Shown here: positions 13,654-26,695 of the stretch, piece after piece | Layout of the letters: every line of letters begins with the position of its first letter | Numbering within the stretch: position 1 is the stretch's first letter | NCBI GenBank assembly: GCA_045612145.1 | Contig: JAZKYN010000113.1 | Location: 1 to 44,234, forward strand | DNA: 44,234 bases | Direction: 5' to 3' | Origin: Bacilli bacterium | Lineage (GTDB): Bacteria; Bacillota_I; Bacilli_A; ML615J-28; CAG-313 | Program-made: the position numbers and the translations under genes | The notes under the pieces: model-generated | Databases searched by the model: none | What the model was told of the DNA's origin: nothing | The model's input: the letters and a program-made list of their open reading frames with translations, nothing else

Positions 13654-13730
13654 AAAACACGTCAATTTCGACTTTACTTAATTATATAAAAATGTTATAA
13701 TTATAATGTAAATAAACGGAGGAACTATTT

Positions 13731-14054
13731 ATGAAAATTATTACAGTTGAAACAAAAGAACAATTACAAGAATTGTATGATGCTTGGGCAATGACTTGGG
13801 AAGGTCTTAGAGAACAAGACTATGAAATTGCTTTAAAAGAATGTGGTCAAGAAGACGCAGACGGTTATGTTATTAAAGGTTCAGTTATGAATAAGTTATG
13901 TAAATTAACTGGAGACAACGCTTATCCAGAAGATTTAAATATCTTTAGTATCGCTAAGTTTAGAGGTTTAGCAATTCATTATGGTGCTAGATGGATGACT
14001 GATATTATTGATAATAATGCTCGTCGTGAAAAAGGACATCATCCATTTAAATAG
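13731..14054 (+). CDS. Hypothetical early protein
   Basis: Promoter, GGAGG RBS, ORF. Confidence 0.8.
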   Translation: MKIITVETKEQLQELYDAWAMTWEGLREQDYEIALKECGQEDADGYVIKGSVMNKLCKLTGDNAYPEDLNIFSIAKFRGLAIHYGARWMTDIIDNNARREKGHHPFK

Positions 14055-14129
14055 CACGTCAGTATCTAATTTACAAATTTTACCAAATATTATATAATTA
14101 TATTGTAAGAAATCAAGGAGGATTTAATT

Positions 14130-14399
14130 ATGGAATATAAACATATTAATGATTGTTGGGCTGCAATTAGAGAAGCAAAAACAATTTATGAAGTACATAA
14201 GTTATTTGACCAATTTCCACGTTGGTCAGGTGATTGGGATGTTGTAATTGAAGATGATCATTATGTAGTCTATAATACTTACTTTGATTCACAATATGAT
14301 GAGTTTGATACAGACTTTGAAATATTAGATATTGAAGTAGAAGAAGACGAAGACGATCGTTCAGAACTTCCGTGGGACTACGGTAAACACTTTGAATAA
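14130..14399 (+). CDS. Acidic hypothetical early protein
   Basis: Promoter, AGGAGG RBS, ORF. Confidence 0.8.
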   Translation: MEYKHINDCWAAIREAKTIYEVHKLFDQFPRWSGDWDVVIEDDHYVVYNTYFDSQYDEFDTDFEILDIEVEEDEDDRSELPWDYGKHFE

Positions 14400-14411
14400 G
14401 GAGGCTTGAGT

Positions 14412-14780
14412 ATGTTAACTAAAGAAGAAAAACAAGATAAAGTTTTAGAGCAAATTATTAGAGAAACTGAAAAAGCCATCTTAGACAGTATTCCCGATTC
14501 TGAAATTGATGATAGAGATAAAATACCTAGTTATCAAGTATGGGTCTTTGGTTTAGATGCTGAAGATGAAATCATCACTGAAAACTTTATGTGTAGCTTT
14601 GACAAACCAGAACTTGCAATAGCTAAAGCAGAAGTATTTGCTGAAGCATTTAGAATGGGCATTGTTAATAAAGAAGATGAAAACATTACTAAGTATCAAA
14701 TCTTAGTAGAAACAGTTATTGACTTTGGTGATTATGAAGAAAACATTCAATCAATTTATGATGAAACAATTGAAATTTAA
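14412..14780 (+). CDS. Acidic hypothetical early protein
   Basis: AGGAGG RBS favours ATG 14412. Confidence 0.75.
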   Translation: MLTKEEKQDKVLEQIIRETEKAILDSIPDSEIDDRDKIPSYQVWVFGLDAEDEIITENFMCSFDKPELAIAKAEVFAEAFRMGIVNKEDENITKYQILVETVIDFGDYEENIQSIYDETIEI

Positions 14781-14860
14781 TTGCACGTCAGTTGAAGCTG
14801 TACTTAATAAATAAAATATTATATAATTAAAATGTAAAAATTAAACGGAGGAAAACATTT

Positions 14861-15175
14861 ATGAGAAAATCAAAATACTTAAACAAAACATTCGGAAATT
14901 GGACATGCACACACGTTGGTGTAGCAAGAAAGCAACCTGTATTTTTAGCAGGTACTAGAAAGAATTCTAAGCGTCCACACCATCAAACTTATTACTACAT
15001 TTTCGAAAGACCAACATCAGACGGTAAAGCGGACAAATTAGTTCGTTTAAGTGCTGGACAAGCTGCTATGGTATATCGTGGTTTATTATCTGTAGAAGAA
15101 GTAGCAGATACAAGACAAGAAAGAGGTGCTGGTGCATTTAAAGAAAAAGTTAGTTATCACTTTTATAATAACTAA
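14861..15175 (+). CDS. Basic hypothetical protein
   Basis: Promoter, GGAGG RBS; first gene of the sigma/initiator operon. Confidence 0.8.
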   Translation: MRKSKYLNKTFGNWTCTHVGVARKQPVFLAGTRKNSKRPHHQTYYYIFERPTSDGKADKLVRLSAGQAAMVYRGLLSVEEVADTRQERGAGAFKEKVSYHFYNN

Positions 15176-15198
15176 TTAAGTAGTAGGGGTGAGTAAGT

Positions 15199-16086
15199 AT
15201 GTTAAAGCAGACATTTAATACATTTAAATCTTGGGCTGAAACATTAAAATATGAAGATGGAGTTGATTACACTGAATCAGGCAGAGAAGTAATCCAACTT
15301 ATGATGGATAGATATTGTGAAGCTAAAGATAATAATGATTCAAAAAATAAAAATAAATACATCGCAGGAATTATGTTAAGATTCTGGCACGTAATTAATA
15401 AACTAAAAGAAAAAAGTCCGATTCAAGGTTTAGACTATTCAGACTACTTCTCTTGGTTATACGAAGCTATTGAATATGCTTGTAAGTATAGAGCATGGCA
15501 AAATCCTGAAAAGAAAACTAATGCACAACAATGTATTAATCAATGTATTGAAACAATTCGTTTACAAAAATATTATGATTTAAACTTACAAAAGAATAAA
15601 TCAAATGTTAATACATACTCTTTAGAAGCAGAACTTAGCGACGACGGTAGAACTACTTTATTAGATACTTTAGTTGATGAAGAAGCTTTAGAAAAAGAAC
15701 GTTTAGAATCAGGTGCAAGTGTAGCAATTGATTTAATTCAAACTTGTATTAATAAAAAGAAAATTGTAGAAGCAATTATTTTAGATACTATTGCATTTAA
15801 TGATGTACAAAAAGTTGAAAAAGAAGTTATTAAAGTTGTAGATGAAGAAGGCAAGACACACAGACACGTTAAACACACAAGTGAGTTTTGGCCATATAAG
15901 TGTGTACAAATTTTAAGTAATTTGCCTGAAGATTATGCTGACTACTTCTGCACACATTATAGAGTTGTAGTACAAGAACTTGAAGCAGCTTTAGGTGCAA
16001 TTAGAAAAGCAAACAATCAAAAATTATACAAGTATTTAAATTCTTGTTTAGAGAGTACTAAGCAATTAGCAGTTGATTTTGCTTAG
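15199..16086 (+). CDS. Putative phage RNA polymerase sigma-like factor
   Basis: Region-2-like DYFSWLYEAIEYACKY and region-3-like YSLEAELSDDGRTTLLDTLVD; 295 aa. Confidence 0.6.
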   Translation: MLKQTFNTFKSWAETLKYEDGVDYTESGREVIQLMMDRYCEAKDNNDSKNKNKYIAGIMLRFWHVINKLKEKSPIQGLDYSDYFSWLYEAIEYACKYRAWQNPEKKTNAQQCINQCIETIRLQKYYDLNLQKNKSNVNTYSLEAELSDDGRTTLLDTLVDEEALEKERLESGASVAIDLIQTCINKKKIVEAIILDTIAFNDVQKVEKEVIKVVDEEGKTHRHVKHTSEFWPYKCVQILSNLPEDYADYFCTHYRVVVQELEAALGAIRKANNQKLYKYLNSCLESTKQLAVDFA

Positions 16087-16119
16087 TCTTTCTTCTTATT
16101 TAAAAGAGGAGGTCTATTT

Positions 16120-16845
16120 ATGTTATTAGATATTATGAGTCCATATAGTTATCTGCAAGTTAATACGAAGATGATTAGTATTTTCGGTCTAAACGTGGCG
16201 GCTTATTGGGCGGAACTATTAAATATTTATCCACGAGTAATCAAAAAGAAAAAAGATGAAGTAATTCAAGCTAATGGTTACTTTACTATTGATAGGGAAT
16301 ACATCAGACAAAGAACATCTTTAGATCTTTCTGAGCAAACTAAGTGCGATAAAGTGTTAGTAAACATTGGTGTGCTTTCAATAGATGAAATTGATCCAAA
16401 CAAGATCTGTATTTCACTAAATGCAATGTTCGAAATACTATCAGAAGATGATACAGAAGCAATTGTAGCAATTCAAAAGAAAGCAAAAGCTAAGAAGTCT
16501 ACTACTAAAGCGACTAAACAAGATATGATTAAATTTAATCTAAAGAAAGCTATTAGAGACACAGACGAAGAAGTAAAGAATGCATATTATAATTGGATTG
16601 ATTCGATTATGGATGGTAGAAATTTCTTAACAAAGCAAGTTGTAGAAATTTTTGAATCTACAGTGCAAGCTTTCTCTACATCTAAAGTAGTTAGACTAAA
16701 ATTAATTGAAATCGCAACAGTTCACAATTATAGAGATGCTAACTGGGCAATTAATATTTACAATAAAGATTGTAAGAAGCCCGGAACATTCATTGGAGTT
16801 GAACAAAAACAAAACGTCGGAATTGATCCGAATTCAGTTTTCTAA
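16120..16845 (+). CDS. Putative replication initiator / winged-helix DNA-binding protein
   Basis: N-terminus VNTKMISIFGLNVAAYWAELL...GYFTIDREYIRQRTSL..SEQTKCDKVL resembles phage replisome-organiser wHTH domains. Confidence 0.55.
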   Translation: MLLDIMSPYSYLQVNTKMISIFGLNVAAYWAELLNIYPRVIKKKKDEVIQANGYFTIDREYIRQRTSLDLSEQTKCDKVLVNIGVLSIDEIDPNKICISLNAMFEILSEDDTEAIVAIQKKAKAKKSTTKATKQDMIKFNLKKAIRDTDEEVKNAYYNWIDSIMDGRNFLTKQVVEIFESTVQAFSTSKVVRLKLIEIATVHNYRDANWAINIYNKDCKKPGTFIGVEQKQNVGIDPNSVF

Positions 16846-16896
16846 AAATTGAAAACAAACTAATTTAAAACACACCACGGAGGATTTTAAGAGCTT

Positions 16897-17178
16897 ATGG
16901 GACACGTTAATACACAACTAGATAATTTATATACCTTTATTAAAAACGTCGCGTATAAAGGCGAATTACAAACCAAATTGAATGAGATTGAAATAGAGCT
17001 AGAAAGACTTGATCAACAAATCGAACAATTTGATAGACTTGGTTTGGAACCCTTTGTAGACTTTTTAACAGAAGATAGAAATAGACTTAATTTAGAACGA
17101 ATTCAGATCAATTTGAAATTAATTGAAGTTGAAAAAGAATTATTAGTATTTGAGTTTGAAGCGGCAACACGAGATTAA
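16897..17178 (+). CDS. Coiled-coil hypothetical protein
   Basis: GGAGG RBS; heptad Leu pattern. Confidence 0.75.
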   Translation: MGHVNTQLDNLYTFIKNVAYKGELQTKLNEIEIELERLDQQIEQFDRLGLEPFVDFLTEDRNRLNLERIQINLKLIEVEKELLVFEFEAATRD

Positions 17179-17294
17179 TTTTAAAATAAGTTAAAAATAA
17201 TTGGCTAAATTAAAAGTTCGAATAAACTGTACCTTATAATTAATCTTGACCGCGAAAGTCGTTAAACTAGACATTGATTATAAGGAGAATATAA

Positions 17295-17507
17295 ATGTAT
17301 AACTATTTTACACACAATTATTCTTTCGCTGTAACAGGATTAGGAAAAACAGTTAGCAAGACATTCCCTTCTAGATATGCTGCAAATGAGTATATGTATA
17401 AGATGTGTCACAGACATGGACTTAAAATTGAAGAAGTTTGGGATGATAAGCATGACAAAACTTATATCTGTAATAAAGGTGTAACATTCTATATCCACAG
17501 AATCTAG
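17295..17507 (+). CDS. Hypothetical protein
   Basis: AAGGAG RBS; downstream of a GCTAAATT motif. Confidence 0.75.
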   Translation: MYNYFTHNYSFAVTGLGKTVSKTFPSRYAANEYMYKMCHRHGLKIEEVWDDKHDKTYICNKGVTFYIHRI

Positions 17508-17614
17508 TGAAAAGAATCCCCTCGTGGAAAAGCTATTAACCACGGTCATCAAAACAAATAGCAAAACTTTAATGAAAATAGTTAAAATTTTATTTTGACT
17601 ATTGTATAATATAA

Positions 17615-17820
17615 TGTAAGTCGGAAACGATTTACAACCCACCTCCTTTCACGAAGATACTCCTCCGTATCTTCCACACCAGTATCCACCAAACTAACAC
17701 CCCCTTTCTTTCACCTCCTTTTGGATACGAAAACTTTATAATAAGATGGCAAGTTTGGTTAGCGTCATCAACTCCCTTTCTTTTTTTTGTTGGATATGCT
17801 GAATAAGCATATCTTTTTTT
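17615..17820 (+). ncRNA. Putative ~205-nt small RNA with five anti-Shine-Dalgarno motifs
   Basis: TATAAT at 17605; 5' hairpin TGTAAGTCG-GAAA-CGATTTACA; CACCTCCTTTC 17640, TCCTCC loop 17661, CACCCCCTTTCT 17698, TCACCTCCTTTT 17711, ACTCCCTTTCT 17771; terminator 17793-17820. Confidence 0.8.
17793..17820 (+). terminator. Intrinsic terminator
   Basis: GATATGCT-GAATA-AGCATATC followed by T7. Confidence 0.85.
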
Positions 17821-17861
17821 ATTATCGTATAATATAATAGACTACCTATGGGGGATTTTTT

Positions 17862-18308
17862 ATGTGAGATTTTAACTTCAATCAAGAAGATCAAATAAGT
17901 AAAGAACAACAAGAAGAACTGTTTACTACTTTAGTACAGAAAGCACTAAAAGGAGAACAGTCCGAATTCAGATTCATCGTTTGCTGACAAGACAGAAATG
18001 TTGTTAGAGAATATATTAGAGGAACTACAGCAACTGTTCAGATGTTTAATAATTTAATCACTAATCTTACAAAAGTATATGTAGATCAGATCGAGAAGAA
18101 CACACAGGATTTGGGGATTATGTTATCACTAAAACAATTCTATACTTGTAAGGATTATTATCAAAAAGAAAGAGAAATTGCCGAAGATATGTTAGACGAA
18201 TACAGATCATACATTTTCGGAGGGCATGTCTGAGATACTTTAGTGGGAAATACAAGAAAGGAAGAAGATATGGTAGATTATCGAACTCTACCTGTCAAGT
18301 GATTCTAA
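17862..18308 (+). CDS. Hypothetical protein, 148 aa (TGA=Trp at 17865, 17985, 18231, 18300)
   Basis: TATAAT and GGGGG RBS upstream; one frame fills the gap to TAA 1 nt before the next ATG. Confidence 0.75.
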
Positions 18309-18309
18309 T

Positions 18310-18540
18310 ATGGAAAGTAATTTAACTACACTATTTACACTATATGCTGAACAAGAAGAAGCGCCGATCGTCGAACTACAGGATATTAATCACAAACCTG
18401 TCGGTGCACTATACTTAAACCGATTTAAGGATAAATCACAAATGGTGATCAGCGAAACAAACAATACAGAGAGATATTATTTCTACTGTGATGGAGTAGC
18501 AATCTTCTTTAGTTTCTGAAAAAAATTAAATTCAAAATAG
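18310..18540 (+). CDS. Hypothetical protein, 76 aa (TGA=Trp at 18517)
   Basis: Track ORF extended through TGA to TAG 18538-18540. Confidence 0.65.
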
Positions 18541-18664
18541 GTCGTTTTCAATCTTAAATATTGTATAATATATTAGGGTAACCTAGTATATTTTTTTATA
18601 TAAAATTTGCTAAATTAAATACCCCCACATTGAAGGGATAATATATATTTGGAGGTAAACAATC

Positions 18665-20878
18665 ATGATAAACGTAATAAAAAGAGACGGAAAAGTAGTA
18701 GAATTTAATAGTGATAAAATTAAAACAGCTATTAGTAAATCTGCTGCTAGAGTCAACGAAATGTCAGAATCAGACATTGATCGCATTACAGAAATTGTAG
18801 TGAATAAATGTGAAAGAGCTCCTGGTGATCGCATCGGAGTTGAAGAAATTCAAGATTTAGTAGAAGACACTTTACTAAAATCAAAATTTAACAGAACCGC
18901 AAAATCTTATATCCTATTCAGAGATATGAGAACTCGTAACAGAGATAATAAATCAAAATTATTAAAAGACATTGCAAAGAAATTAAACGGAACTAATATC
19001 GTTAATCAAAATGCAAACTTAGATGAAGCTTCATTTGGTGGTAGAAAAGGTGAAGCTGCAAATGAATTAATGAAGTGGTTTGCACTAAATAACTGTATGT
19101 CTAAGAAATCTAGAGATAATCATCTGAACAATGAAATCTATATCCATGACTTAGATTCATATTCACTTGGAATGCACAACTGTATGAGTATTCCTTTTGA
19201 TCATCTATTAGAGAAAGGCTTCAATACTAGACAAACAGATATCAGACCGGCATCCTCAATTAATACAGCATTCCAATTAGTAGCAGTAATTTTCCAATTA
19301 CAAAGCTTACAACAATTTGGTGGTGTATCAGCAACTCACTTAGACTGGACTATGGTTCCTTATGTAAGAAAGAGTTTCTACAAACATATGGAAGATGGAA
19401 TGAAGTTTATGTGGAAAGGTGATATTAGACCAGTGTTCGAAAAAGACTGGCCGATCGATCATCCAATCTATAAATCATTTAGTGACTGTGGAATCTATGA
19501 CTATGCAATGGAAATGACAGCTAGAGAGTTGAATCAAGCTGTAGAAGGAATGTACCATAACTTAAATACATTACAATCTCGTTCAGGAAACCAATTACCT
19601 TTCTCTAGTATTAACTATGGAACTTGTACTTCAATTGAAGGAAGAATGGTAATTAAAGCTTTACTAGAAGGTTGTATTAAAGGTGTAGGTAAACATCACC
19701 GCACTTCTATTTTCCCTTGTGGCATCTTCCAATATATGAAAGGTGTTAATGACAGACCAGGAACTCCTAACTACGATATGTATCAATTAGCACTTAAGTC
19801 TACAGCACAAAGACTTTATCCAAACTACGCTAATGTAGACTGGTCAGGTAACGCAGGATATGATCGTAATGATCCTAAAACATATTTTAGTACAATGGGA
19901 TGTAGAACTGCTAATGGATTTGACATTAATCATGATGAAGGAGTTAATCCACAAACTAAAGATGGTAGAGGAAACATCTGTCCGGTAACAATCATCATGC
20001 CTACACTTGCTATGGAAGCAGGTAGAGATGTAGATTGCTTCATGGCTTTACTAGATACTAAAATTCACGAAGCGAAAGATATGTTGATCGAAAGATTCGA
20101 ATACATCTGCACTCAGGATGCAGGTGCTGCGAAGTTTATGTATGAAAATAATGTAATGTTAGGATACAAACCGGAAGAAGGAATTCGTTCAGCGCTTAAA
20201 CATGGAACATTGGCATTAGGTCAACTTGGATTAGCAGAGACATTAGAGCTTTTAGTAGGATGCAATCATACTAAACCAGAAGGTATGGAATTAGCACATC
20301 GAATCGAAGCGTTATTTAAACAAAGAGTTGCAGAATTCAAGAACAAGTATAAATTAAACTTTGGTGTTTACTATACTCCAGCTGAATCGTTATGTCATAC
20401 AGCTATGAAGAAGTTCAAAGATAAGTATGGCGAAATTGAGAGAGTTTCAGATCGCGAGTATTTCACAAACAGTATGCATGTACCTGTATGGGAAGAAGTC
20501 GATATCTTTACTAAAATTGATATTGAATCAGAATTAACTGGATATTCATCTGCAGGTTGTATTACTTATGTAGAATTAGATAGTTCTGCTAAGTCAAACT
20601 TAGATGCTTTAGAAACTATTGTTAATTATGCAATGGATAAAGATATTCCATACTTCGCATTAAACTTAAGAAATGATACTTGTTTAGATTGTGGTTACAC
20701 AGAAGAATTCAATGATCGTTGTTTAGAATGTGGTTCTACTAATATCCAACAATTACGTAGAGTTACAGGATATTTAACTGGAAATTACACTACTGCGTTC
20801 AACTACGGTAAACAAAAAGAAGTAGAAGACCGAATTCAACACACAAAGTTAACAGAAGGTTGGAAATCTAATGATTAA
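18665..20878 (+). CDS. nrdD: Anaerobic (class III) ribonucleoside-triphosphate reductase with N-terminal ATP cone
   Basis: VIKRDG ATP cone, IYIHDLD, HNC, MGCRT, TPAES, CLDC/CLEC zinc site, RRVTGYL glycyl-radical loop. Confidence 0.97.
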   Translation: MINVIKRDGKVVEFNSDKIKTAISKSAARVNEMSESDIDRITEIVVNKCERAPGDRIGVEEIQDLVEDTLLKSKFNRTAKSYILFRDMRTRNRDNKSKLLKDIAKKLNGTNIVNQNANLDEASFGGRKGEAANELMKWFALNNCMSKKSRDNHLNNEIYIHDLDSYSLGMHNCMSIPFDHLLEKGFNTRQTDIRPASSINTAFQLVAVIFQLQSLQQFGGVSATHLDWTMVPYVRKSFYKHMEDGMKFMWKGDIRPVFEKDWPIDHPIYKSFSDCGIYDYAMEMTARELNQAVEGMYHNLNTLQSRSGNQLPFSSINYGTCTSIEGRMVIKALLEGCIKGVGKHHRTSIFPCGIFQYMKGVNDRPGTPNYDMYQLALKSTAQRLYPNYANVDWSGNAGYDRNDPKTYFSTMGCRTANGFDINHDEGVNPQTKDGRGNICPVTIIMPTLAMEAGRDVDCFMALLDTKIHEAKDMLIERFEYICTQDAGAAKFMYENNVMLGYKPEEGIRSALKHGTLALGQLGLAETLELLVGCNHTKPEGMELAHRIEALFKQRVAEFKNKYKLNFGVYYTPAESLCHTAMKKFKDKYGEIERVSDREYFTNSMHVPVWEEVDIFTKIDIESELTGYSSAGCITYVELDSSAKSNLDALETIVNYAMDKDIPYFALNLRNDTCLDCGYTEEFNDRCLECGSTNIQQLRRVTGYLTGNYTTAFNYGKQKEVEDRIQHTKLTEGWKSND

Positions 20879-21473
20879 TTTTATTAAGAAGTCAGTTCTC
20901 GCCGGATTACTTATCAGTCTGGCGGGCTGAATTAAATTAAGCTGCAGCGATCCGATCGTTGGGTCAATATTATTTAGTGTTGGACTAATTAGTGTATTTA
21001 TGACCGAATCTAAATTATTTACAGGAGCTGTCGGTAATGTAAATTCAAAACGATCTATTTTCGAATTATTCCCGATGTTGGGACTAAATTTAGTAATATC
21101 AATCTTAATTGGATTATGTTATCAAGAAGTCTGCGGAACTTCAGATATATTTACTGAAAAAATGAAATTAGATCAACTTCAAATTTTACCAACTTTATTT
21201 AAAGGAGTCGGTTGTGGTGCACTAATATATTTGGCAGTAATGTTCTGAAAAACTGAAAAACAAATTCATCAGATCATTCCGGTAATATTATGTGTTGCAG
21301 GATTCATATTAGGTGGATTTGAACACAGTATTGCTTGTGCATTTTATTTAGGATCAAGCGTAACTACTGTAACAGAATTCTTTACTGGATTATTATATAT
21401 ACTAATAGTGGCAGTCGGGAATGCGATCGGCAGTTTAACTATTAGAGGTTTGTGGAAGGGGTTGATTAAATAA
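20871..21473 (+). CDS. Formate/nitrite transporter (FNT, FocA-like) channel, 200 aa (TGA=Trp at 20928 and 21246)
   Basis: SVLAGLLISLAG, GSILFSVGL, KLFTG, KGVGCGALIYLAV, FILGGFEHSIA, VAVGNAIG are the FNT signature segments; about six hydrophobic helices; overlaps the nrdD stop and the nrdG start. Confidence 0.88.
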
Positions 21474-21988
21474 TGAATTATTTAAGTCTAAATAAATCAG
21501 ACATCACAAACGGTCCTGGAGTTAGAGTATCTTTATTTGTGTCAGGTTGCACACACAGATGTAAAGGTTGTCATAATCCGGATGGGTGATCGTTCGACAA
21601 TGGTACTAAATTTAGTCAGTTTACTGTAGCAGAGATCCTCGATGCATTAGCGAAACCTCACATCAAAGGTTTAAGTCTGCTAGGAGGAGAGTGTTACGAT
21701 CAACCGGATTTATACTGATTAGTGAATTTAGTAAGATTGGCGAAAGAACATTATCCAACCAAAGACATTTGGGTGTGAACAGGGTATGAATTCGAACAAA
21801 TTAAAACTTCTCCACTAACTAGATATATTGATGTTGCAGTAACTGGAAGATTCATCTTAGAACAAAGAGACATCAGTGATAATAATAGATGAAGAGGATC
21901 TACGAATCAGAAGGTGATCGATGTTCAGTCCTCACTAAATAGTGGAAGAGCAGTCGCAGTAAGTGGCATCCCGAACAATGAGGTGTAA
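21473..21988 (+). CDS. nrdG: Anaerobic RNR activating radical-SAM protein, 171 aa (TGA=Trp at 21587, 21716, 21776, 21890)
   Basis: NGPGVRVSLFVSGCTHRCKGCHNPDG(W)SF, GLSLLGGE, KDIWV(W)TGY, (W)RGSTNQ; missed by the ORF track. Confidence 0.95.
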
Positions 21989-21990
21989 TT

Positions 21991-22269
21991 ATGATTAGAA
22001 ATAAATTGTATGATGAATTAGAAAAAGAAGGATATTCTTTTGATAGAATTATTATCGCACCAAAACAGTCGATACCAAAAATCTATAGTTTGACAGATCC
22101 TGAAGACTGAGCGATGGTAAACGTAACAATGCAGATCAACGGTCAGTATCAAGTGGAACGTGGTGCGAATACTACACAACGAACTATTGAACTTTTACAA
22201 AAGATATTAGATGAAGTTTTTAAACCTGACTATTATGATTATATATCCAAAGCATTAGTAGAAAACTAA
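21991..22269 (+). CDS. Hypothetical protein, 92 aa (TGA=Trp at 22108)
   Basis: GAGGTG RBS; open frame with readthrough. Confidence 0.7.
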
Positions 22270-22286
22270 ATGCTAAATTAATTGCT

Positions 22287-22628
22287 ATGAAGACTTATGT
22301 AATTTGTTGAGAAAATATTAATTATCCAAAAGAAGGTGAAGAACTAGACACTACTTTTAGTGTGATAAAAAGATCGTTTGGATCCAAAATGGCAGCATTT
22401 GAATATTTAAAAACTGAAGAGATTCCGATTGCACTAGAACAACTTAAAGTGGAATACAGTGATGTGATCGGTATGTCGGAAGAAGAATTAAGTATTGAGA
22501 GTGGAGTTTATTATGAGGATAAATTTCTACAGGCGGAAATAAATGTGTATTTCAACGAAGAATTAGTAGAGTCTATCGGATATAAAATAGTTGAAACTGA
22601 ATTACAAATGGCGACGTTAATTAATTAA
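22287..22628 (+). CDS. Hypothetical protein, 113 aa (TGA=Trp at 22308)
   Basis: In frame with track ORF 22362; ATG 7 nt after GCTAAATT with no RBS (possibly leaderless). Confidence 0.65.
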
Positions 22629-22708
22629 AAATTACGTCGTTTTTTATTTTACTTTATTTTATTTATATGATATAATTATATTGTAATTAAGTTAGGGGGA
22701 AGTTGAAT

Positions 22709-23029
22709 ATGAAAAAAACTAATTATATTGTTGCTGCTCATTATAATGGGGAAAATTATTTAGAAGATTGTTGTTTATTAGGTTGGAATAGTAGAGAAGA
22801 TTGGATTGATACTGATTATTATGGGGATGATATTACAACACCTGCTGGAAATATTAAAAATAATAAATATGGATTAATTAAAGTTTCAACTCACACATCT
22901 GTTTATGTTGGTGAAACTTATGAAAACTGTAAAACTTATTGTGATATGGGAAATCGTGAAGGTTTAGATTGTAGAGTTTGTAAAATTGAAAAAGATTCTA
23001 ATAATAATTTAATTGTAATTCCTGTTTAA
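22709..23029 (+). CDS. Hypothetical early protein
   Basis: Promoter, AGGGGG RBS. Confidence 0.8.
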   Translation: MKKTNYIVAAHYNGENYLEDCCLLGWNSREDWIDTDYYGDDITTPAGNIKNNKYGLIKVSTHTSVYVGETYENCKTYCDMGNREGLDCRVCKIEKDSNNNLIVIPV

Positions 23030-23106
23030 AGTACGTCAGTTTAATATTTACCAAAAGTATCTAATATGATATAATAATAATGTAAGAAACATTGGAGGAA
23101 ATTAAA

Positions 23107-23304
23107 ATGAAAAAATATGAAATTATGTTTAAAAATGGAAAGATTGAAATCTGGAACAGTAGTGATACAGAAGATTTAATTTATGAATTAGAATCTTTTG
23201 AAAGAGACGATGTCAATATGATTGATGAAATCGACGAAACTGGAGAATTTATCAGAAGAATCTGGACTGAAGAAGAAGGATTATTTGTTGGTTTAGATCT
23301 TTAA
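23107..23304 (+). CDS. Small acidic early protein
   Basis: Promoter, GGAGG RBS. Confidence 0.8.
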   Translation: MKKYEIMFKNGKIEIWNSSDTEDLIYELESFERDDVNMIDEIDETGEFIRRIWTEEEGLFVGLDL

Positions 23305-23321
23305 AAGGAAGGAAACTAATT

Positions 23322-23597
23322 ATGAGTACTAGTAATCAATTTGTTTGGAACTTTGAAGAAGGAACATTAAATAAGTTTACTTATCTACAAGAAGATGGTA
23401 GATTCGATGATATTGCGGATGAGATTCTAAGTAATACTAATTTAAGTACAGTATTTGTTGATGAAGTTCGAGGTATTATGTCAGACTATGATTATAATGA
23501 AGATAAGTTTAATGATGATGTCTTAATTGCGATTAGAATTATTAATGACAGATACGAATTAATTAAAGAAGAGAATGAAGAAGACACGTCAATCTAA
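23322..23597 (+). CDS. Acidic hypothetical protein
   Basis: RBS-like AGGAAGG, ORF. Confidence 0.75.
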   Translation: MSTSNQFVWNFEEGTLNKFTYLQEDGRFDDIADEILSNTNLSTVFVDEVRGIMSDYDYNEDKFNDDVLIAIRIINDRYELIKEENEEDTSI

Positions 23598-23653
23598 TGT
23601 GTCTTTTTATTTTATAATATGTTATAATTATATTGTAAGTGAGGAACAGAAAT

Positions 23654-23884
23654 ATGAAGAAAAGAACTAAGTTAAATTATGAAGAGTTAAATAAAAGAGT
23701 TAATGAAGTCTTTGATATGAACGAAGGAGAAAAATGTTATGGTTTGTTTGTTGAAGACAACGGAACTGTAAGAGTTTGTTTAGAAGACAGTGAATTAAAC
23801 GTATTTGACTATTTACCAAATATGACAGAAAGACCTGAAGCACTACAATATTTAATGGGTGAAAGAGATTCATTTTCAGATTAA
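23654..23884 (+). CDS. Hypothetical early protein
   Basis: Promoter, GAGG RBS. Confidence 0.75.
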   Translation: MKKRTKLNYEELNKRVNEVFDMNEGEKCYGLFVEDNGTVRVCLEDSELNVFDYLPNMTERPEALQYLMGERDSFSD

Positions 23885-23897
23885 GGAGGAAATAATT

Positions 23898-24059
23898 ATG
23901 TTTACAGATGTTGAAATTGAAATTTTAGACAATATAGTTTATATTGCAAATGACGGAAGTAGTGGTTGTAAATATAAGTTTAACAGTAAAGAAGAACTTA
24001 AAGAATATATTAACAACTATATGTCAGACTTAGTAGATTATTTATTGGAGGACAAATAA
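23898..24059 (+). CDS. Small hypothetical protein
   Basis: AAGGAGG RBS favours ATG 23898. Confidence 0.75.
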   Translation: MFTDVEIEILDNIVYIANDGSSGCKYKFNSKEELKEYINNYMSDLVDYLLEDK

Positions 24060-24060
24060 A

Positions 24061-24258
24061 ATGACTAAACAAGAATTAAACACATTAAGTGAATTACTAA
24101 TCAAATTACAAAATGAAAGATTACAAGAATATCGTGACGAAGGTTATGATATTGACGGTATGGACGAAGAAGGTATTATGGAATTAGATGATGGAGATAA
24201 TTTAATTCAAGGAATCGATACTGTATTTTGTGTAGTTCAAAGAATTAGGGGGAACTAA
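24061..24258 (+). CDS. Small acidic protein
   Basis: GGAGG RBS; tightly coupled to neighbours. Confidence 0.75.
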   Translation: MTKQELNTLSELLIKLQNERLQEYRDEGYDIDGMDEEGIMELDDGDNLIQGIDTVFCVVQRIRGN

Positions 24259-24259
24259 T

Positions 24260-24505
24260 ATGACAATTAAATTGAGTGGAAATAAAAAAGAAATTAATAC
24301 AAAACATTATTTTTTAATTGAAAAGACTTTCAGTGAACGTAGTTCAGGTTATGTAAAGATTTGTGAATCTTACGATGAAGCAGTTGAACAAGTACCAAAT
24401 TACGCAGACTGGTGGTGTAATAATGGAACTTGTACTGTAGTAGAAGTAGACAGTAATTTTAGAGAAGTTAATAAGTGGAGGTTTTGGAATGGCGAACTTA
24501 GATAA
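24260..24505 (+). CDS. Hypothetical protein
   Basis: AGGGGG RBS; coupled. Confidence 0.75.
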   Translation: MTIKLSGNKKEINTKHYFLIEKTFSERSSGYVKICESYDEAVEQVPNYADWWCNNGTCTVVEVDSNFREVNKWRFWNGELR

Positions 24506-24746
24506 AAAGATGTATGTAATTAAATTTAATAATGGTTTATATTGGTGTGGTTATAATACATCAGATAAACAACTTAGAAAAGCAAAAATCTATACTTCAA
24601 TTAAGTATGCTAGAGAAGTAGGGTTAGACTGTATTAGTAGAAAACAGTATGTCAGACCGTATGACTTTATGACGAAAACGGACGGATTTCAAATTATTGA
24701 AGTAGAATTAAAAGAAAAAGAAACGGTTGAAAGTACGTCAATTTAA
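24489..24746 (+). CDS. Hypothetical protein
   Basis: GGAGG RBS inside the previous gene. Confidence 0.75.
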   Translation: MANLDKKMYVIKFNNGLYWCGYNTSDKQLRKAKIYTSIKYAREVGLDCISRKQYVRPYDFMTKTDGFQIIEVELKEKETVESTSI

Positions 24747-24806
24747 TTTTTACAACTATAATTAAATATGGTATAATATAACTGTAGTTAAACAGGAGGA
24801 ACTAAT

Positions 24807-24983
24807 ATGTATTATGTTTATTTAGATTCACCGTACGGAACAGAATTAATCGGAAAGTCTACTGACAAATCTGTTGCAGAAAAAATTAAATCTGAACAAG
24901 ACTCTAAATGGGAAGTTGGATTTATGTGGAATACTAGAATAACTGAAAAGGAAGATCTAAGAGAAGTTAGTTATTATGACTAA
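24807..24983 (+). CDS. Small hypothetical protein, 58 aa
   Basis: Promoter, AGGAGG RBS; below the track cutoff. Confidence 0.75.
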   Translation: MYYVYLDSPYGTELIGKSTDKSVAEKIKSEQDSKWEVGFMWNTRITEKEDLREVSYYD

Positions 24984-25001
24984 AAAATGAGGCAAATGTG
25001 T

Positions 25002-25460
25002 ATGACTGAAAAGGAACTTATTGAAAAAAGAATTAATGAACTTTATGAAACTGTGGCAAAAGCAGATTATTCTGATATTGGTTATTTAGTAAGTTATGGA
25101 AAATCTGGTAAAGGTCGAAAGATTGAGATTGTCCCAACTGCGACAGATAAAGTTCATCCTAATTTTTATATTATAAAACAACTAGATGAAACATTAAGTT
25201 GTTTAAACTTAAGAGTTGTTATAACACACAGGAGTAATAATTGGTGTCCATACATTGAACTAATTATTATGGTAGATGGTAAAGACTATCACAATTATAC
25301 AGATGCTGGTGACTTAGTTGTAAAAGAACTTAAAAGATATATGAGTATTGAATCAGACGAATTATTTAAACATATTAAAAATCTTGATACAGTTTCTTGT
25401 GCAAGAACTAAAGTTGCTCTTAGTCACGCATGTGCAACATTTAATATCTATATTTGTTAA
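25002..25460 (+). CDS. Hypothetical protein
   Basis: GAGG RBS, ORF. Confidence 0.75.
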   Translation: MTEKELIEKRINELYETVAKADYSDIGYLVSYGKSGKGRKIEIVPTATDKVHPNFYIIKQLDETLSCLNLRVVITHRSNNWCPYIELIIMVDGKDYHNYTDAGDLVVKELKRYMSIESDELFKHIKNLDTVSCARTKVALSHACATFNIYIC

Positions 25461-25544
25461 ACTAAAACACGTCAATTTAAACTTTACTTTAATTGAAAAA
25501 TATTATATAATAAGAATGTAAGAAATAAACAGGAGGAAATTATT

Positions 25545-25847
25545 ATGTCAAGAACTTATGCAACATTAACTGGAGGAAGAAGTACATTAACACAAAGAGG
25601 ACATGGTGACGGAGTTAGAGTCAGTTGTCAAAGTTGGGATGGAAGTGTAATTGTTAGTAATCGTTATGACTGTGACGATAAATTAGAACTAAGAATTGGT
25701 ACTAATGAAGGATCTGGAACTTATACAGACTGGAAATCAAATGACTTCGTCGGAACATTTGAAGAGTTTAAAGAATTACTAAAACTTCATCAAGATATTA
25801 AATCAGGTAGAGTTTCAGTTGTAAGACACAGAATTAAAAAACAATAA
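25545..25847 (+). CDS. Hypothetical early protein
   Basis: Promoter, AGGAGG RBS. Confidence 0.8.
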   Translation: MSRTYATLTGGRSTLTQRGHGDGVRVSCQSWDGSVIVSNRYDCDDKLELRIGTNEGSGTYTDWKSNDFVGTFEEFKELLKLHQDIKSGRVSVVRHRIKKQ

Positions 25848-25921
25848 GTCGAAATCACGTCAATTTCGACTTTACTTATTTCTTAAATTATTATATAATA
25901 TAAATGTGTGGAGGTTAGACT

Positions 25922-26254
25922 ATGAGATGTATTATTCCTAATAAAGTTAGATTTGTAAATGATTTAAATAAGGTAATTCCAACTTATAAAACTGGAATTG
26001 AAAAAATTGAATATAGAGTTTTTAAAAGTAATTCTGGTTATTATCAAGAATATCTAGTTGTGACTTACGACGGGGGAGCAATCGGTGTTAGAAATTGTAA
26101 TGGAAATTCTTTTACTTCAGTATTTGAAGAACTAACTAAAATGTTAGACGGTGGTTATTATGACGAAGTTCAAGATTTAAGAGACTTTGAAACTTACCCA
26201 AATTGGATTGAAGTGACTTTAGAACAATTAGATGAAGATTATCAAAATAGATAG
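25922..26254 (+). CDS. Hypothetical early protein
   Basis: Promoter, GGAGG RBS. Confidence 0.8.
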   Translation: MRCIIPNKVRFVNDLNKVIPTYKTGIEKIEYRVFKSNSGYYQEYLVVTYDGGAIGVRNCNGNSFTSVFEELTKMLDGGYYDEVQDLRDFETYPNWIEVTLEQLDEDYQNR

Positions 26255-26341
26255 TCTTCCAAAACACGTCAATTTAGATTTTACTTATTTGCTAAATTAT
26301 TGTATAATATTAATGTAAGGTAAATAAAGGAGAAAATATTT

Positions 26342-26581
26342 ATGGAACAACAAATAGATAGAAGAGACTTTAAAATGTATTGTAGAGAAGTCAGTAATGA
26401 TGGAAGTGAATTTGAATTAGTTTTCGAAGTAGATGGAAAAGTAGTAGATAAACAAACTGAATTCTGTTTTCAAAATATTTTAATTGAAAGTGAAGATTTT
26501 CTAACTAGAAATTGTGAAAAGTATGATTATGATTCTAGATATGATAGTTTCGAAATTAATTTAAATTATATTTTTTCATAA
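26342..26581 (+). CDS. Hypothetical early protein (paralog of 29037..29252)
   Basis: Promoter, AGGAG RBS; shared C..NILIE..EF/DF..R..EKY.YD/FD.RYD/RFD pattern. Confidence 0.8.
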   Translation: MEQQIDRRDFKMYCREVSNDGSEFELVFEVDGKVVDKQTEFCFQNILIESEDFLTRNCEKYDYDSRYDSFEINLNYIFS

Positions 26582-26695
26582 GATAAAAGAAAGTAAGATT
26601 GATTAAGTTCAATCTTTTTTTATTACGTCAATATCACTTTTACAAATAATTAAAAATATGATATAATATACTTGCAAATAAGGGAGGAAAGTATT

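What the first reader, a model, noticed from the sequence alone, without database searches (positions are those of the whole stretch)
20871..21473. Phage-encoded formate channel inserted between nrdD and nrdG
Seen: a 200-aa membrane protein, hidden by two TGA codons, with the FNT motifs LFTG, FEHSIA and GNAIG, overlapping both the nrdD stop and the nrdG start. Known: formate is the reductant for many class III RNRs, and FocA-type FNT channels conduct formate. Inference: an auxiliary metabolic module supplying the electron donor for anaerobic dNTP synthesis. The protein is shorter than typical FocA and seems to lack the N-terminal gating region, so it may be constitutively open.
Basis: partly seen in the sequence, partly recalled or inferred. 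Interest (0 to 1): 0.82.

Follow-up and report, generated by a model that had tools for sequence, protein, structure and literature searches.

The report
Phage formate channel inside nrdD–nrdG operon
A phage that reads TGA as tryptophan carries a miniature formate-channel gene wedged between the two genes of its oxygen-free DNA-precursor enzyme, probably to bring in the formate that this enzyme burns, and the same arrangement recurs in many uncultivated gut and rumen phages.

Summary
Window 20871-21473 (+) is a 200-aa ORF under TGA=Trp. It matches Pfam Form_Nir_trans (65.1 bits, cut-off 34.6), folds as an FNT protomer (pLDDT 93.7; Foldseek TM 0.8 to HSC, NirC and FocA), and overlaps the nrdD stop and the nrdG start.

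The contig is a TGA-recoded phage fragment binned with a standard-code MAG.

The protein belongs to a large family of minimal FNTs of about 185-230 aa that lack FocA's N-terminal domain. The pore Thr and His are invariant in 151 of 151 sequences.

- In IMG/VR, 45 of 73 loci with this FNT have it beside nrdD/nrdG, in three gene orders and three genetic codes. Only 3 of 80 cellular loci do.
- The phage NrdD has the formate-type Cys/Cys/Asn/Gly signature.
- Cellular homologues often sit as purM-FNT-purN.
- The binned host genus mostly lacks pyruvate formate-lyase but has a short FNT.

Best reading, at about 0.7: the channel takes up formate to feed phage ribonucleotide reduction. Transport itself is untested. 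I found no paper describing the module.

The parts
18651..18655 (+). GGAGG Shine-Dalgarno sequence 9 nt upstream of the nrdD ATG. The 124-nt intergenic region upstream (18541-18664) holds promoter-like hexamers (18545-18574) that are no more frequent than chance.
   Evidence: Sequence read. In the promoter scan, 36 sites were found against 34.6 expected.
18665..20878 (+). nrdD: class III (anaerobic) ribonucleoside-triphosphate reductase, 737 aa, with an ATP-cone and formate-type active-site residues C173, C413, N437 and G702. It has no in-frame TGA and 7 TGG.
   Evidence: Pfam NRDD 484.8 bits and ATP-cone 75.9 bits. TIGR02487 483.8 bits against a cut-off of 326.35. PDB 8p23 E 2.5e-119. Residue mapping. 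Codon counts.
20871..21473 (+). Minimal FNT-family channel, 200 aa, six TM helices with TM2 and TM5 broken, and no N-terminal cytoplasmic domain. This is the finding.
20928..20930 (+). In-frame TGA read as Trp20.
   Evidence: The homologous column is variable and hydrophobic; 4 homologues have W there (3 TGG, 1 TGA).
21015..21026 (+). LFTG motif. T51 corresponds to the pore threonine T91 of E. coli FocA.
   Evidence: T is invariant in 151 of 151 short FNTs. The role of T91 is taken from PMC9380403.
21246..21248 (+). In-frame TGA read as Trp126.
   Evidence: The column is aromatic in homologues (Y 69, F 54, W 2).
21318..21335 (+). FEHSIA motif. E151, H152 and S153 correspond to FocA E208, H209 and S210. 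The next residue, C156, stands where FocA has N213.
   Evidence: H is invariant in 151 of 151. At position 156 the family has D in 116 and N in 33 sequences, and only the window has C. The C is kept in the 99%-identical P0004.
21417..21431 (+). GNAIG motif. N184 corresponds to FocA N262.
   Evidence: N is invariant in 151 of 151.
21473..21988 (+). nrdG: radical-SAM activase of NrdD, 171 aa, with 4 in-frame TGA read as Trp.
   Evidence: TIGR02491 156.1 bits against a cut-off of 126.1. Fer4_12 144.9 bits. TGA positions checked.
21991..22628 (+). Two small TGA-containing ORFs of unknown function (21991-22269 and 22287-22628) that follow nrdG after a 2-nt gap. They may belong to the same transcription unit.
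   Evidence: They were among the 43 ORFs scanned against PHROGs, which returned only two families of unknown function.

Best explanation
The window is a fragment of a large, uncultivated phage that reads TGA as tryptophan while its binned host uses the standard code. Its anaerobic ribonucleotide reductase operon is nrdD-fnt-nrdG, with the three genes translationally coupled through overlapping stop and start codons.

The middle gene encodes a minimal member (200 aa) of the formate/nitrite transporter family. It keeps the aquaporin-like six-helix protomer and the central Thr/His pair. It lacks FocA's cytoplasmic N-terminal domain and has shortened loops.

Most likely mechanism (inferred): the channel inserts into the host membrane during infection and lets external formate or formic acid into the cell. 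There the formate-type NrdD, activated by NrdG, oxidises it to CO2 as the reductant for NTP-to-dNTP conversion. The phage thereby secures the co-substrate for its burst of DNA synthesis. This matters most in hosts that cannot make formate because they lack pyruvate formate-lyase and depend on formate from the surrounding community.

Shown here: the gene, its family, its fold, its conserved pore residues, the operon anatomy, the recoding, the formate-type NrdD signature and the recurrent phage-specific linkage.

Inferred: the substrate (formate), the direction (uptake) and the benefit to the phage.
For: 1. Family and fold. Pfam PF01226 scores 65.1 bits against a cut-off of 34.6. The family profile hits V. 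cholerae FocA at 3.2e-19, HSC at 5e-18, E. coli FocA at 2e-16 and NirC at 6.3e-15. The AF2 model has pLDDT 93.7 and pTM 0.90 with the expected helix pattern. The top Foldseek hits are all FNT channels, with TM(query) 0.72-0.82.

2. Pore residues. Of the nine conserved FocA pore residues listed in PMC9380403, T91, H209, E208, S210 and N262 are identical here, and K156 aligns with K97. N172 is Gly, which that paper names as the only natural variant. T51, H152, N73 and N184 are invariant in 151 of 151 short FNTs. In FocA the central His is needed for uptake but not for efflux (PMC8914244).

3. Linkage.
- Of 73 IMG/VR loci with a short FNT, 26 are nrdD-FNT-nrdG, 16 nrdD-nrdG-FNT, 1 FNT-nrdD-nrdG and 1 is cut as nrdD-FNT. 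L009 adds one more by Pfam.
- In 41 of the 44 loci found linked by tblastn, the FNT lies within 50 bp of an nrd gene.
- After clustering at 90% identity, 32 of 49 viral clusters are linked, against 3 of 61 cellular-only clusters.
- The linked loci use TGA-recoded, TAG-recoded and standard codes.
- They are spread over several clades of the FNT tree. The tree needs 17 changes of the label 'linked', and well-supported branches force at least 8.
- All 9 searched phage records with an unlinked FNT still encode NrdD elsewhere.
- Among the 80 closest viral NrdD loci, 24 carry the FNT.

4. NrdD type. The closest solved relative is P. copri NrdD, which requires formate. C173, C413, N437 and G702 are invariant in 31 related phage NrdDs.

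5. Independent cellular context pointing to formate. purM lies directly upstream in 14 of 61 cellular clusters, and the order is purM-FNT-purN in 10 of 61. Christensenella has deoC, FNT and convergent nrdG-nrdD.

6. Host.
- No PFL-like enzyme was found in the 88%-complete MAG. The MAG has a formate-type NrdD and its own short FNT.
- In its genus, 9 of 10 relatives have the short FNT and no PFL. The one genome with PFL lacks the FNT. All 10 have NrdD.
Against: - No transport, expression or binding data exist. I could reach no RNA evidence because the look-up of sequencing runs did not complete.
- Sequence similarity does not tell substrates apart. The profile scores for FocA, HSC and NirC are close, and the best structural match is the hydrosulfide channel HSC.
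- The FocA equivalog models are far below cut-off (39.6 against 290.1 bits, and 23.9 against 440).
- The window's protein has Cys where FocA has the structurally important N213 and the family has D or N. It is the only one of 151 with Cys.
- FocA's N-terminal domain, reported to gate both directions (PMC8914244), is absent, so FocA rules may not carry over.
- 52 of the 80 closest phage NrdD operons do without the FNT, so it is an accessory.
- The host assignment rests on binning only, and the MAG is incomplete.
- Across the 30 relatives, the complementarity between PFL and the short FNT is a trend among kin, not a test. 16 of 26 PFL-negative genomes have the FNT, against 1 of 4 PFL-positive genomes.
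- No FTHFS was found in the MAG, so the purine-operon logic does not apply to this particular host.
Confidence: 0.7

Rival explanations
1. The protein is a working FNT channel but with another substrate or direction. It might export formate or formic acid for pH control, or move nitrite or hydrosulfide (for example to protect the oxygen- and NO-sensitive glycyl radical and Fe-S cluster), or carry bicarbonate as the algal FNT relative LCIA is named for.
For: The best fold match is the hydrosulfide channel HSC, and NirC ranks 4th. Profile scores for FocA, HSC and NirC are within 14 bits of each other. PDB entry 9v2a, titled 'Low-CO2 inducible protein LCIA', also matches at 4.3e-12; its bicarbonate role is recalled. 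FNT channels are bidirectional in FocA (PMC8914244).
Against: The partner enzyme consumes formate. The cellular homologues sit in two formate-consuming or nucleotide contexts: purM-FNT-purN in 10 of 61 clusters, and nrdDG. The central His, needed in FocA only for uptake, is invariant. The binned host and 9 of 10 relatives in its genus show no PFL, so there would be no formate to export.
Confidence: 0.12
2. The gene is a hitch-hiker. The nrdD/nrdG junction is a hot spot for mobile insertions, and the FNT is a neutral or unrelated 'moron' with no functional tie to ribonucleotide reduction.
For: Many related phage nrdD genes are interrupted (in-frame stops across the NrdD span in L007, L014, L016, L045 and others). 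In Thomasclavelia phages an HNH endonuclease is annotated within nrdD. 52 of the 80 closest nrdD-nrdG operons lack the FNT. One cellular copy lies next to an IS3 transposase.
Against: The same family recurs beside nrd genes in three gene orders, three genetic codes and several FNT clades. It lies within 50 bp of an nrd gene in 41 of 44 linked loci. In the window its start and stop codons overlap those of its neighbours. The pore residues are invariant. Adjacency is rare in cells, at 3 of 80 loci.
Confidence: 0.08
3. The protein is a membrane-active phage protein with a non-metabolic role, such as depolarising the host, timing lysis like a holin, or excluding superinfecting phages, built on an FNT scaffold.
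For: It is a small polytopic membrane protein in a phage. The missing gating domain could mean an ungated pore. This is an inference only; no call supports it directly.
Against: It is not near lysis or structural genes, and no such genes were seen in the window. Close cellular homologues sit in biosynthetic operons. The selectivity-pore residues are conserved.
Confidence: 0.04
4. The ORF is not translated as a whole. The TGAs are real stops, and the region is a decayed gene or a chance frame.
For: Under table 11 only an 82-aa piece is open. No suppressor tRNA was found in the window or in the MAG, which holds only tRNA-Trp(CCA).
Against: - The full-length Pfam match runs across both TGAs.
- Homologous columns are aromatic or hydrophobic.
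- The nrdG TGAs align with Trp.
- None of 54 ORFs ends in TGA.
- Coding cover rises by 0.16 with TGA as sense.
- A 99%-identical full-length protein stands for 18 member sequences.
- The contig is only a fragment of the phage, so the tRNA may lie elsewhere.
Confidence: 0.02

Closest known systems
E. coli / V. cholerae FocA (formate channel of the focA-pflB operon)
   Same: Same Pfam family and fold. The pore Thr/His pair and the E-H-S and G-N motifs are kept. Like FocA, it is encoded directly beside a glycyl-radical enzyme and its activase.
   Different: It is about 80 residues shorter. It has no cytoplasmic N-terminal domain; alignments start at FocA residue ~31. The omega-loop/TM2b region and other loops are shortened. 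N172 is Gly and N213 is Cys. It scores far below the FocA equivalog cut-offs. Its partner enzyme consumes formate (NrdD) rather than producing it (PflB), so the expected net flow is inward.
Clostridioides difficile HSC (hydrosulfide channel, PDB 3tdo/3tdp) and Salmonella NirC (4fc4)
   Same: These are the best structural matches, with TM(query) 0.79-0.82, and have similar profile scores.
   Different: Sequence identity is about 22%. The genomic context here gives no link to sulfite or nitrite reduction.
Cellular minimal FNTs of Clostridia, Bacilli, Synergistaceae and Methanomassiliicoccales (unnamed family, about 185-230 aa)
   Same: Same length class and the same invariant residues. They interleave with the phage copies in the tree. 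The binned host has one at G000:C15 (36% identity).
   Different: They are rarely beside nrdDG (3 of 80 loci). Instead purM lies upstream in 14 of 61 clusters, and the order is purM-FNT-purN in 10 of 61.
Phage nrdD-nrdG modules (T4-type; Thomasclavelia phages TR-TP1/TP2)
   Same: The NrdD is of the formate type, related to T4 NrdD (1h78, E 5.6e-71). The DNA is 70% identical to the Thomasclavelia phage nrdD.
   Different: Among 50,697 GenBank phage records, tblastn found this FNT only in one unannotated 4.6-kb fragment, MT839063, which has no nrd neighbour. The one other match was a bacterial genome record. The characterised phage modules therefore have no channel.
UniProt A0A8S5NWF3, 'Formate/nitrite transporter' of Siphoviridae sp. 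ctTnV63 (BFVD)
   Same: It is the only viral protein in BFVD with this fold at E <= 0.001. It is 191 aa, with TM 0.77-0.80.
   Different: It carries an automatic name only. I saw neither its context nor any publication about it.

Membership tests
Formate/nitrite transporter family (Pfam PF01226, TCDB FNT) | Family HMM match above the curated threshold over most of the profile | tested here: met
   65.1 bits against a cut-off of 34.6, covering profile positions 21-236 of 240. The whole-genome scan gives 66.6 bits.
Formate/nitrite transporter family (Pfam PF01226, TCDB FNT) | Aquaporin-like protomer of six TM helices, with TM2 and TM5 broken by the omega and S loops | tested here: met
   The AF2 model (pLDDT 93.7) has helices 2-24, 28-44, 50-56, 60-88, 102-128, 132-147, 153-162 and 167-199. 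Foldseek gives TM(query) 0.72-0.82 to HSC, NirC, FocA and PfFNT.
Formate/nitrite transporter family (Pfam PF01226, TCDB FNT) | Central pore His and Thr (FocA H209 and T91) | tested here: met
   H152 and T51 are invariant in 151 of 151 relatives. Their roles are taken from PMC9380403 and PMC8914244.
Formate/nitrite transporter family (Pfam PF01226, TCDB FNT) | Homopentamer | not tested
Formate/nitrite transporter family (Pfam PF01226, TCDB FNT) | Transport of a monovalent anion or its acid (formate, nitrite, HS-, lactate) | not testable with these tools
   This needs flux assays. Genomic context favours formate.
FocA proper (NCBIfam TIGR04060 / NF008069 equivalogs) | Equivalog HMM score above cut-off | tested here: not met
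   39.6 bits against 290.1, and 23.9 against 440.
FocA proper (NCBIfam TIGR04060 / NF008069 equivalogs) | Cytoplasmic N-terminal domain that gates the pore and contacts PflB | tested here: not met
   TM1 starts at residue 2. Alignments begin at FocA residue ~31. The role of the domain is taken from PMC8914244 and PMC5600444.
FocA proper (NCBIfam TIGR04060 / NF008069 equivalogs) | Linkage to pflB | tested here: not met
   The neighbours are nrdD and nrdG. No PFL-like gene was found in the MAG.
Formate-dependent class III RNR (NrdD1 sense of Wei et al.; NrdD + NrdG) | NrdD and NrdG equivalog HMMs above cut-off | tested here: met
   TIGR02487 scores 483.8 bits against 326.35, and TIGR02491 scores 156.1 against 126.1.
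Formate-dependent class III RNR (NrdD1 sense of Wei et al.; NrdD + NrdG) | Two active-site Cys and the radical Gly, with Asn (not a third Cys) on beta-strand 6 | tested here: met
   C173, C413, N437 and G702 align with P. copri C171, C416, N435 and G711. They are invariant in 31 phage NrdDs. Wei et al. 2014 itself was not held, so the criteria come from PMC11226230 and PMC4493059.
Formate-dependent class III RNR (NrdD1 sense of Wei et al.; NrdD + NrdG) | Activity with formate as reductant | not testable with these tools
   This needs an enzyme assay.
TGA-to-Trp recoded phage infecting a standard-code host | Coding density gain with TGA as sense, no TGA used as a stop, and TGA at Trp positions of conserved proteins, while the host uses code 11 | tested here: met
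   The concept comes from the abstract of 10.1101/2021.08.26.457843 (listing).
TGA-to-Trp recoded phage infecting a standard-code host | Suppressor tRNA(UCA) or another recoding factor encoded by the phage | tested here: not met
   There are 0 tRNAs in the window, and only tRNA-Trp(CCA) among the 22 tRNAs of the MAG. The contig is a fragment, so this does not exclude one.
TGA-to-Trp recoded phage infecting a standard-code host | Phage hallmark (structural or packaging) genes | tested here: inconclusive
   The window has none. It holds only replication and nucleotide genes with PHROG hits (SNF2 helicase, Dam methylase, NrdD, NrdG) and many ORFans. Its closest relatives are IMG/VR contigs of 14-237 kb.

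The most novel reading that the evidence does not exclude
Minimal FNTs are dedicated 'anabolic' formate importers. They make PFL-less gut and rumen anaerobes, and the large phages that infect them, dependent on community-derived formate for DNA precursor synthesis: purine formyl groups in cells, and the NrdD reductant in both. Phages have captured this channel several times and wired it into nrdD-nrdG as a self-contained 'reductant supply plus reductase plus activase' cassette. This would be the first phage auxiliary gene that imports the co-substrate of a phage nucleotide enzyme. A bolder extension is that the channel docks on NrdD, as FocA docks on the homologous glycyl-radical enzyme PflB. 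The complex-prediction tool did not accept these proteins, so that extension remains open.
Probability: 0.4. Interest if true: 0.85.

Novelty: new variant of a known kind. Interest (0 to 1): 0.72.

Why it matters
Class III ribonucleotide reductases of the T4 / E. coli type need formate, yet where that formate comes from during phage infection has hardly been considered. A channel gene placed between the reductase and its activase, seen again and again in uncultivated phages of anaerobic habitats, suggests that co-substrate supply can limit phage DNA synthesis. It also suggests that phages solve this by importing an abundant fermentation product of their neighbours.

The finding points as well to an unstudied minimal branch of the FNT family, about 200 aa with no gating domain. 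This could be a useful minimal model for FNT mechanism. In cells the branch sits in purine operons, which hints at formate cross-feeding for nucleotide synthesis in PFL-less anaerobes.

All of this can be tested directly with existing FocA assays.

Tried and rejected
- **Complex prediction of NrdD with the FNT.** I wanted to test a FocA-PflB-like contact. 
- **RNA or DNA run evidence.** The look-up of sequencing runs did not complete four times, so read laying was never used.
- **Genome-contig scan.** The scan with the wide alignment A1 failed for lack of a conserved stretch. I repeated it with the closer alignment A2.
- **Wei et al. 2014 (PMC4246965).** The paper is not held, so I took the criteria for the NrdD types from two later papers.
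- **Promoter and terminator scan of 17000-23500.** Promoter-like sites were at chance level (36 against 34.6). No convincing terminator lies between the three genes. The one terminator-like hairpin inside the FNT gene (20949-20965) has a weak tail.
- **PHROGs for the FNT.** The only hit is a weak match to an unnamed family (E 0.0067).
- **PHROG scan of 43 further window ORFs.** It returned only two families of unknown function, so the window itself holds no structural hallmark gene.
- **'Mis-binned Mollicutes chromosome piece' reading.** I considered and rejected it. The window has no housekeeping genes, TGA use is patchy, the genes with matches hit phage protein families (PHROGs), and related IMG/VR contigs exist.
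- **'TGA = Gly (code 25)' reading.** I considered and rejected it, because the TGA columns are Trp or aromatic.
- **Literature.** Searches found no paper on a phage FNT, on an FNT with nrdDG, or on an FNT with purM/purN.


Full report
**1. What is in the sequence**

Under table 11 the region holds only an 82-aa ORF (21000-21248). With TGA read as sense there is one 200-aa ORF, 20871-21473 (+), with two in-frame TGAs at codons 20 and 126. Its ATG lies 8 nt inside the end of nrdD (18665-20878). The last base of its TAA is the first base of the nrdG ATG (21473-21988). The neighbours are unambiguous:
- NrdD: Pfam NRDD 484.8 bits plus an ATP-cone; TIGR02487 483.8 bits against a cut-off of 326.35.
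- NrdG: TIGR02491 156.1 bits against a cut-off of 126.1.

nrdD has a GGAGG 9 nt before its ATG, behind a 124-nt spacer. The scan found no convincing terminator between the three genes, and promoter-like sites are at chance level.

**2. Is TGA really sense, and what is the contig?**

The window is the whole contig C113 of a 1.69-Mb, 165-contig MAG that is 88% complete.
- ORF cover of C113 rises from 0.64 to 0.80 when TGA is sense. No other contig of at least 8 kb gains more than 0.04.
- None of the 54 ORFs in the window ends in TGA (47 TAA, 7 TAG). There are 44 in-frame TGA beside 107 TGG.
- In NrdG, three of the four TGA positions align with Trp in phages that use the standard code (W in 16, 10 and 8 of 22).
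- In the FNT, W126 falls in an aromatic column (Y 69, F 54, W 2), and W20 in a variable hydrophobic one.

All ORFs of the window that I counted as genes lie on one strand. Those with matches are an SNF2 helicase, a Dam methylase, NrdD and NrdG, with PHROG hits. Of the rest, 8 long ORFs had no match, and 43 further ORFs gave only two families of unknown function. The only DNA matches among GenBank phages are the nrdD genes of two Thomasclavelia phages, at 70% identity.

So this is a fragment of a TGA-to-Trp recoded phage binned with a standard-code host. That phenomenon is described in the abstract of 10.1101/2021.08.26.457843 (search listing). No suppressor tRNA is present in the window or in the MAG, but the phage genome is incomplete.

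**3. What the protein is**

- Pfam Form_Nir_trans matches at E 8.2e-18, 65.1 bits (cut-off 34.6), over aa 4-194 and profile positions 21-236 of 240.
- The general NCBIfam fnt model and the FocA and NirC equivalogs match only weakly and far below their cut-offs.
- A word-indexed search found 87 relatives, nearly all of 183-253 aa. The exhaustive search of 50%-identity representatives found 1309 at E <= 0.001 and 437 at <= 1e-10; 148 of the best 150 are 181-260 aa long, and the other two are shorter. The short length is therefore the normal state of a large family, not a truncation in this phage.
- A profile of 41 members hits V. cholerae FocA (3.2e-19), HSC (5e-18), E. coli FocA (2e-16), NirC (6.3e-15), LCIA and PfFNT.
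- The AlphaFold model built on that alignment has pLDDT 93.7 and pTM 0.90. It shows the six-helix protomer with broken TM2 and TM5, and TM1 starts at residue 2.
- The top Foldseek hits are all FNT channels, with TM(query) 0.72-0.82 and about 22% identity. HSC ranks first.
- Relative to canonical FNTs, the family lacks the roughly 27-30 residue cytoplasmic N-terminus. It also has deletions in the TM1-TM2 loop, just after LFTG (the omega-loop/TM2b region), and in three later loops (alignments).

Kammel and Sawers list nine conserved FocA pore residues (PMC9380403, passages read). Here:
- T91, E208, H209, S210 and N262 are identical.
- K156 aligns with K97. That mapping is firm only in the near subfamily.
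- N172 is Gly, which the paper names as the only natural variant.
- D88, poorly conserved anyway, is Lys.
- N213 is Cys.

Across 151 short FNTs taken from loci, T51, H152, N73 and N184 are invariant. Position 116 is G in 138. Position 156 is D in 116 and N in 33, and only the window has C. That Cys is retained in a 99%-identical protein that stands for 18 member sequences.

**4. The linkage with nrdD/nrdG is recurrent and specific to phages**

A pattern scan of IMG/VR returned 73 loci that encode a relative. tblastn with the window's three proteins found these arrangements:

| Arrangement | Loci |
|---|---|
| nrdD-FNT-nrdG | 26 |
| nrdD-nrdG-FNT | 16 |
| FNT-nrdD-nrdG | 1 |
| nrdD-FNT (cut by contig end) | 1 |
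| No nrd gene within 5 kb | 29 |

. One of the 29, L009, has a divergent NrdD directly upstream by Pfam, which gives 45 of 73.

- In 41 of the 44 loci linked by tblastn, the FNT ORF lies within 50 bp of an nrd gene.
- The contigs are large: median 107 kb, 37 of 73 at 100 kb or more, and 12 at 200 kb or more.
- By an ORF-cover heuristic, 9 loci look TGA-recoded, 19 TAG-recoded and 45 standard.
- After clustering the FNTs at 90% identity, 32 of 49 viral clusters (window included) are linked. Only 3 of 61 clusters seen solely in cellular genome contigs are. Those three are Christensenella loci with convergent nrdG-nrdD and a deoC upstream.

On a maximum-likelihood tree of 108 cluster representatives, the label 'linked' needs 17 changes. 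Well-supported branches force at least 8, and phage and cellular copies interleave. Two representatives longer than 260 aa were left out of the tree. Kin share labels, so this shows repeated gain, loss or rearrangement rather than a count of events.

I searched ten phage records with an unlinked FNT for NrdD. Nine were held, and all nine encode NrdD elsewhere.

Looking from the other side, the 80 closest viral NrdD loci (63-77% identity) break down as 15 nrdD-FNT-nrdG, 9 nrdD-nrdG-FNT, 52 nrdD-nrdG and 4 nrdD alone. The channel is thus an optional accessory in roughly a third of this NrdD lineage.

**5. The reductase is of the formate type**

The closest solved structure is Prevotella copri NrdD (8p23, E 2.5e-119), followed by 9d3x and T4 NrdD. 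The T. maritima type is remote (4.5e-17). The P. copri paper (PMC11226230, passages read) states that the enzyme requires formate. It names C416, C171 and G711, and notes that Asn435 stands where thioredoxin-type enzymes have a third Cys. PMC4493059 gives the same criteria. The window's NrdD has C173, C413, N437 and G702 at these positions, and so does the host NrdD on C135. All four are invariant in 31 related phage NrdDs, with or without the FNT.

**6. Independent context in cells**

I scanned the nearest flanking ORFs of the 61 cellular clusters, 117 ORFs in all. The commonest families were AIR synthase (13-14 ORFs) and Formyl_trans_N (10), then DeoC (5). Two pairs were confirmed as PurM and PurN above NCBIfam cut-offs. 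By BLAST, purM lies directly upstream in 14 of 61 clusters, and the order is purM-FNT-purN in 10 of 61. Purine synthesis uses formyl groups that many anaerobes derive from formate (established knowledge). This is therefore a second, independent nucleotide pathway in which formate supply makes sense.

**7. The putative host**

The MAG shows no pyruvate formate-lyase or any PFL-like enzyme and no formate-tetrahydrofolate ligase, with the caveat that it is 88% complete. It does have a formate-type NrdD and its own 220-aa short FNT, which sits beside an alcohol dehydrogenase.
- Among 10 relatives of the same genus, 9 have the short FNT and no PFL. The single genome with PFL lacks the FNT. All 10 have NrdD.
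- Over all 30 relatives, 16 of 26 PFL-negative genomes and 1 of 4 PFL-positive genomes have it.

This is suggestive only. The genomes are kin, and the phage-host link rests on binning.

**8. Mechanism proposed**

In FocA the central His is required for formate uptake but not for efflux (PMC8914244, passages read), and the short FNTs never lose it. I combine this with four points: the partner enzyme consumes formate, the genes are translationally coupled, the purine-operon context exists in cells, and the likely hosts lack PFL. The best reading is uptake of external formate to feed phage ribonucleotide reduction (confidence about 0.7).

The same paper reports that FocA's N-terminal domain gates both directions. 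Its absence here means gating must differ, and 'constitutively open' remains speculation.

The rivals are scored in the report sections: another substrate or direction (0.12), a hitch-hiker at an insertion hot spot (0.08), a non-metabolic membrane role (0.04), and an untranslated ORF (0.02).

**9. Novelty**

Among 50,697 GenBank phage records, tblastn found this FNT only in one unannotated 4.6-kb fragment, which has no nrd neighbour. The one other match was a bacterial genome record held in that collection. BFVD holds a single viral FNT-fold protein, automatically named 'Formate/nitrite transporter'.

Full-text searches for phage plus formate transporter plus nrdD/nrdG, formate nitrite transporter plus auxiliary metabolic plus phage, FocA / bacteriophage / ribonucleotide reductase / formate channel, and formate plus purM plus purN plus FNT found nothing on this module.

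The 2017 FNT classification defines eight subgroups with N-termini of 25-55 residues (PMC5525234, passages read). Its supplements, which might list short forms, are closed.

I therefore rate this a new variant of a known kind: a known channel family in an undescribed minimal form, in an undescribed phage module.

**10. What remains open**

- I obtained no expression data; the run finder did not complete.
- I obtained no oligomer or NrdD-contact model; the tool did not accept these proteins.
- Substrate, direction and benefit to the phage need the experiments listed under next steps.

Noticed in passing
window 490-44231 (all ORFs): TGA(Trp) use is patchy. ORFs in 490-2623, 17862-18540, 20871-22628 and 40265-42744 carry 1-10 in-frame TGAs each. 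Long runs of ORFs (2663-3951, 7186-17178, 22703-29710 and 32506-39770) have none. nrdD (0 TGA, 7 TGG) is an island without TGA inside a block that uses it. NrdD could therefore be made under the standard code, while its activase and the channel need recoding. Alternatively, nrdD was recently exchanged with a standard-code phage.
   Followed up: partly
L110:3970-6210, L126:3913-6210 and 8 further genome-contig loci: In cellular genomes the short FNT often sits as purM-FNT-purN. purM is upstream in 14 of 61 clusters and both genes flank it in 10 of 61. This suggests formate uptake for purine formyl groups. My one search found no paper.
   Followed up: partly
G000 and relatives G010-G039: Within the host genus, the PFL-like enzyme and the short FNT are complementary. 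9 of 10 relatives have the FNT and no PFL, 1 of 10 has PFL and no FNT, and all have NrdD.
   Followed up: partly
L007, L014, L016, L042, L045, L049, L052, L057, L071 (NrdD spans): Many related phage nrdD genes are interrupted, with dozens of in-frame stops across the NrdD span. This fits introns, inteins or endonuclease insertions. In Thomasclavelia phages TR-TP1/TP2 an HNH endonuclease is annotated between two nrdD pieces.
   Followed up: no
window 21336-21338 (codon 156 of the FNT): Cys stands where FocA has the structurally important N213 and the family has D (116) or N (33). It is unique among 151 sequences, yet it is kept in a 99%-identical protein from other samples.
   Followed up: partly
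window 40265-41527 and 41518-42744: Two adjacent, very TGA-rich ORFs (10 and 8 TGAs) with no family match. The first contains an internal duplication: the stretch around FGPDGGEGDPNP occurs twice.
   Followed up: no
window 4005-7040: A 1011-aa, highly acidic ORF with Cys-X2-Cys pairs near both ends and no Pfam or PHROG match.
   Followed up: no
L081:4016-7183 = L242 (G021:C57): In a relative from the host's family, a short FNT 45% identical to the window's lies between an IS3-family transposase and a ClcA-like chloride/proton exchanger. This hints that the gene is mobile in cells.
   Followed up: no
L099, L138, L149 (Christensenella): These are the only cellular loci where the FNT is near nrd genes. 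The order is deoC (divergent), FNT, then convergent nrdG-nrdD: a deoxynucleotide neighbourhood.
   Followed up: partly
Genome-contig loci L084-L087, L090, L094, L097, L103: Similar short FNTs (33-39% identical to the window's) turn up in MAGs labelled Methanomassiliicoccales, Eggerthellaceae and Bacteroides, and in the tree some of these group together across the labels. Either the gene is shared by a mobile element or phage that was binned into unrelated MAGs, or it has been transferred widely.
   Followed up: no
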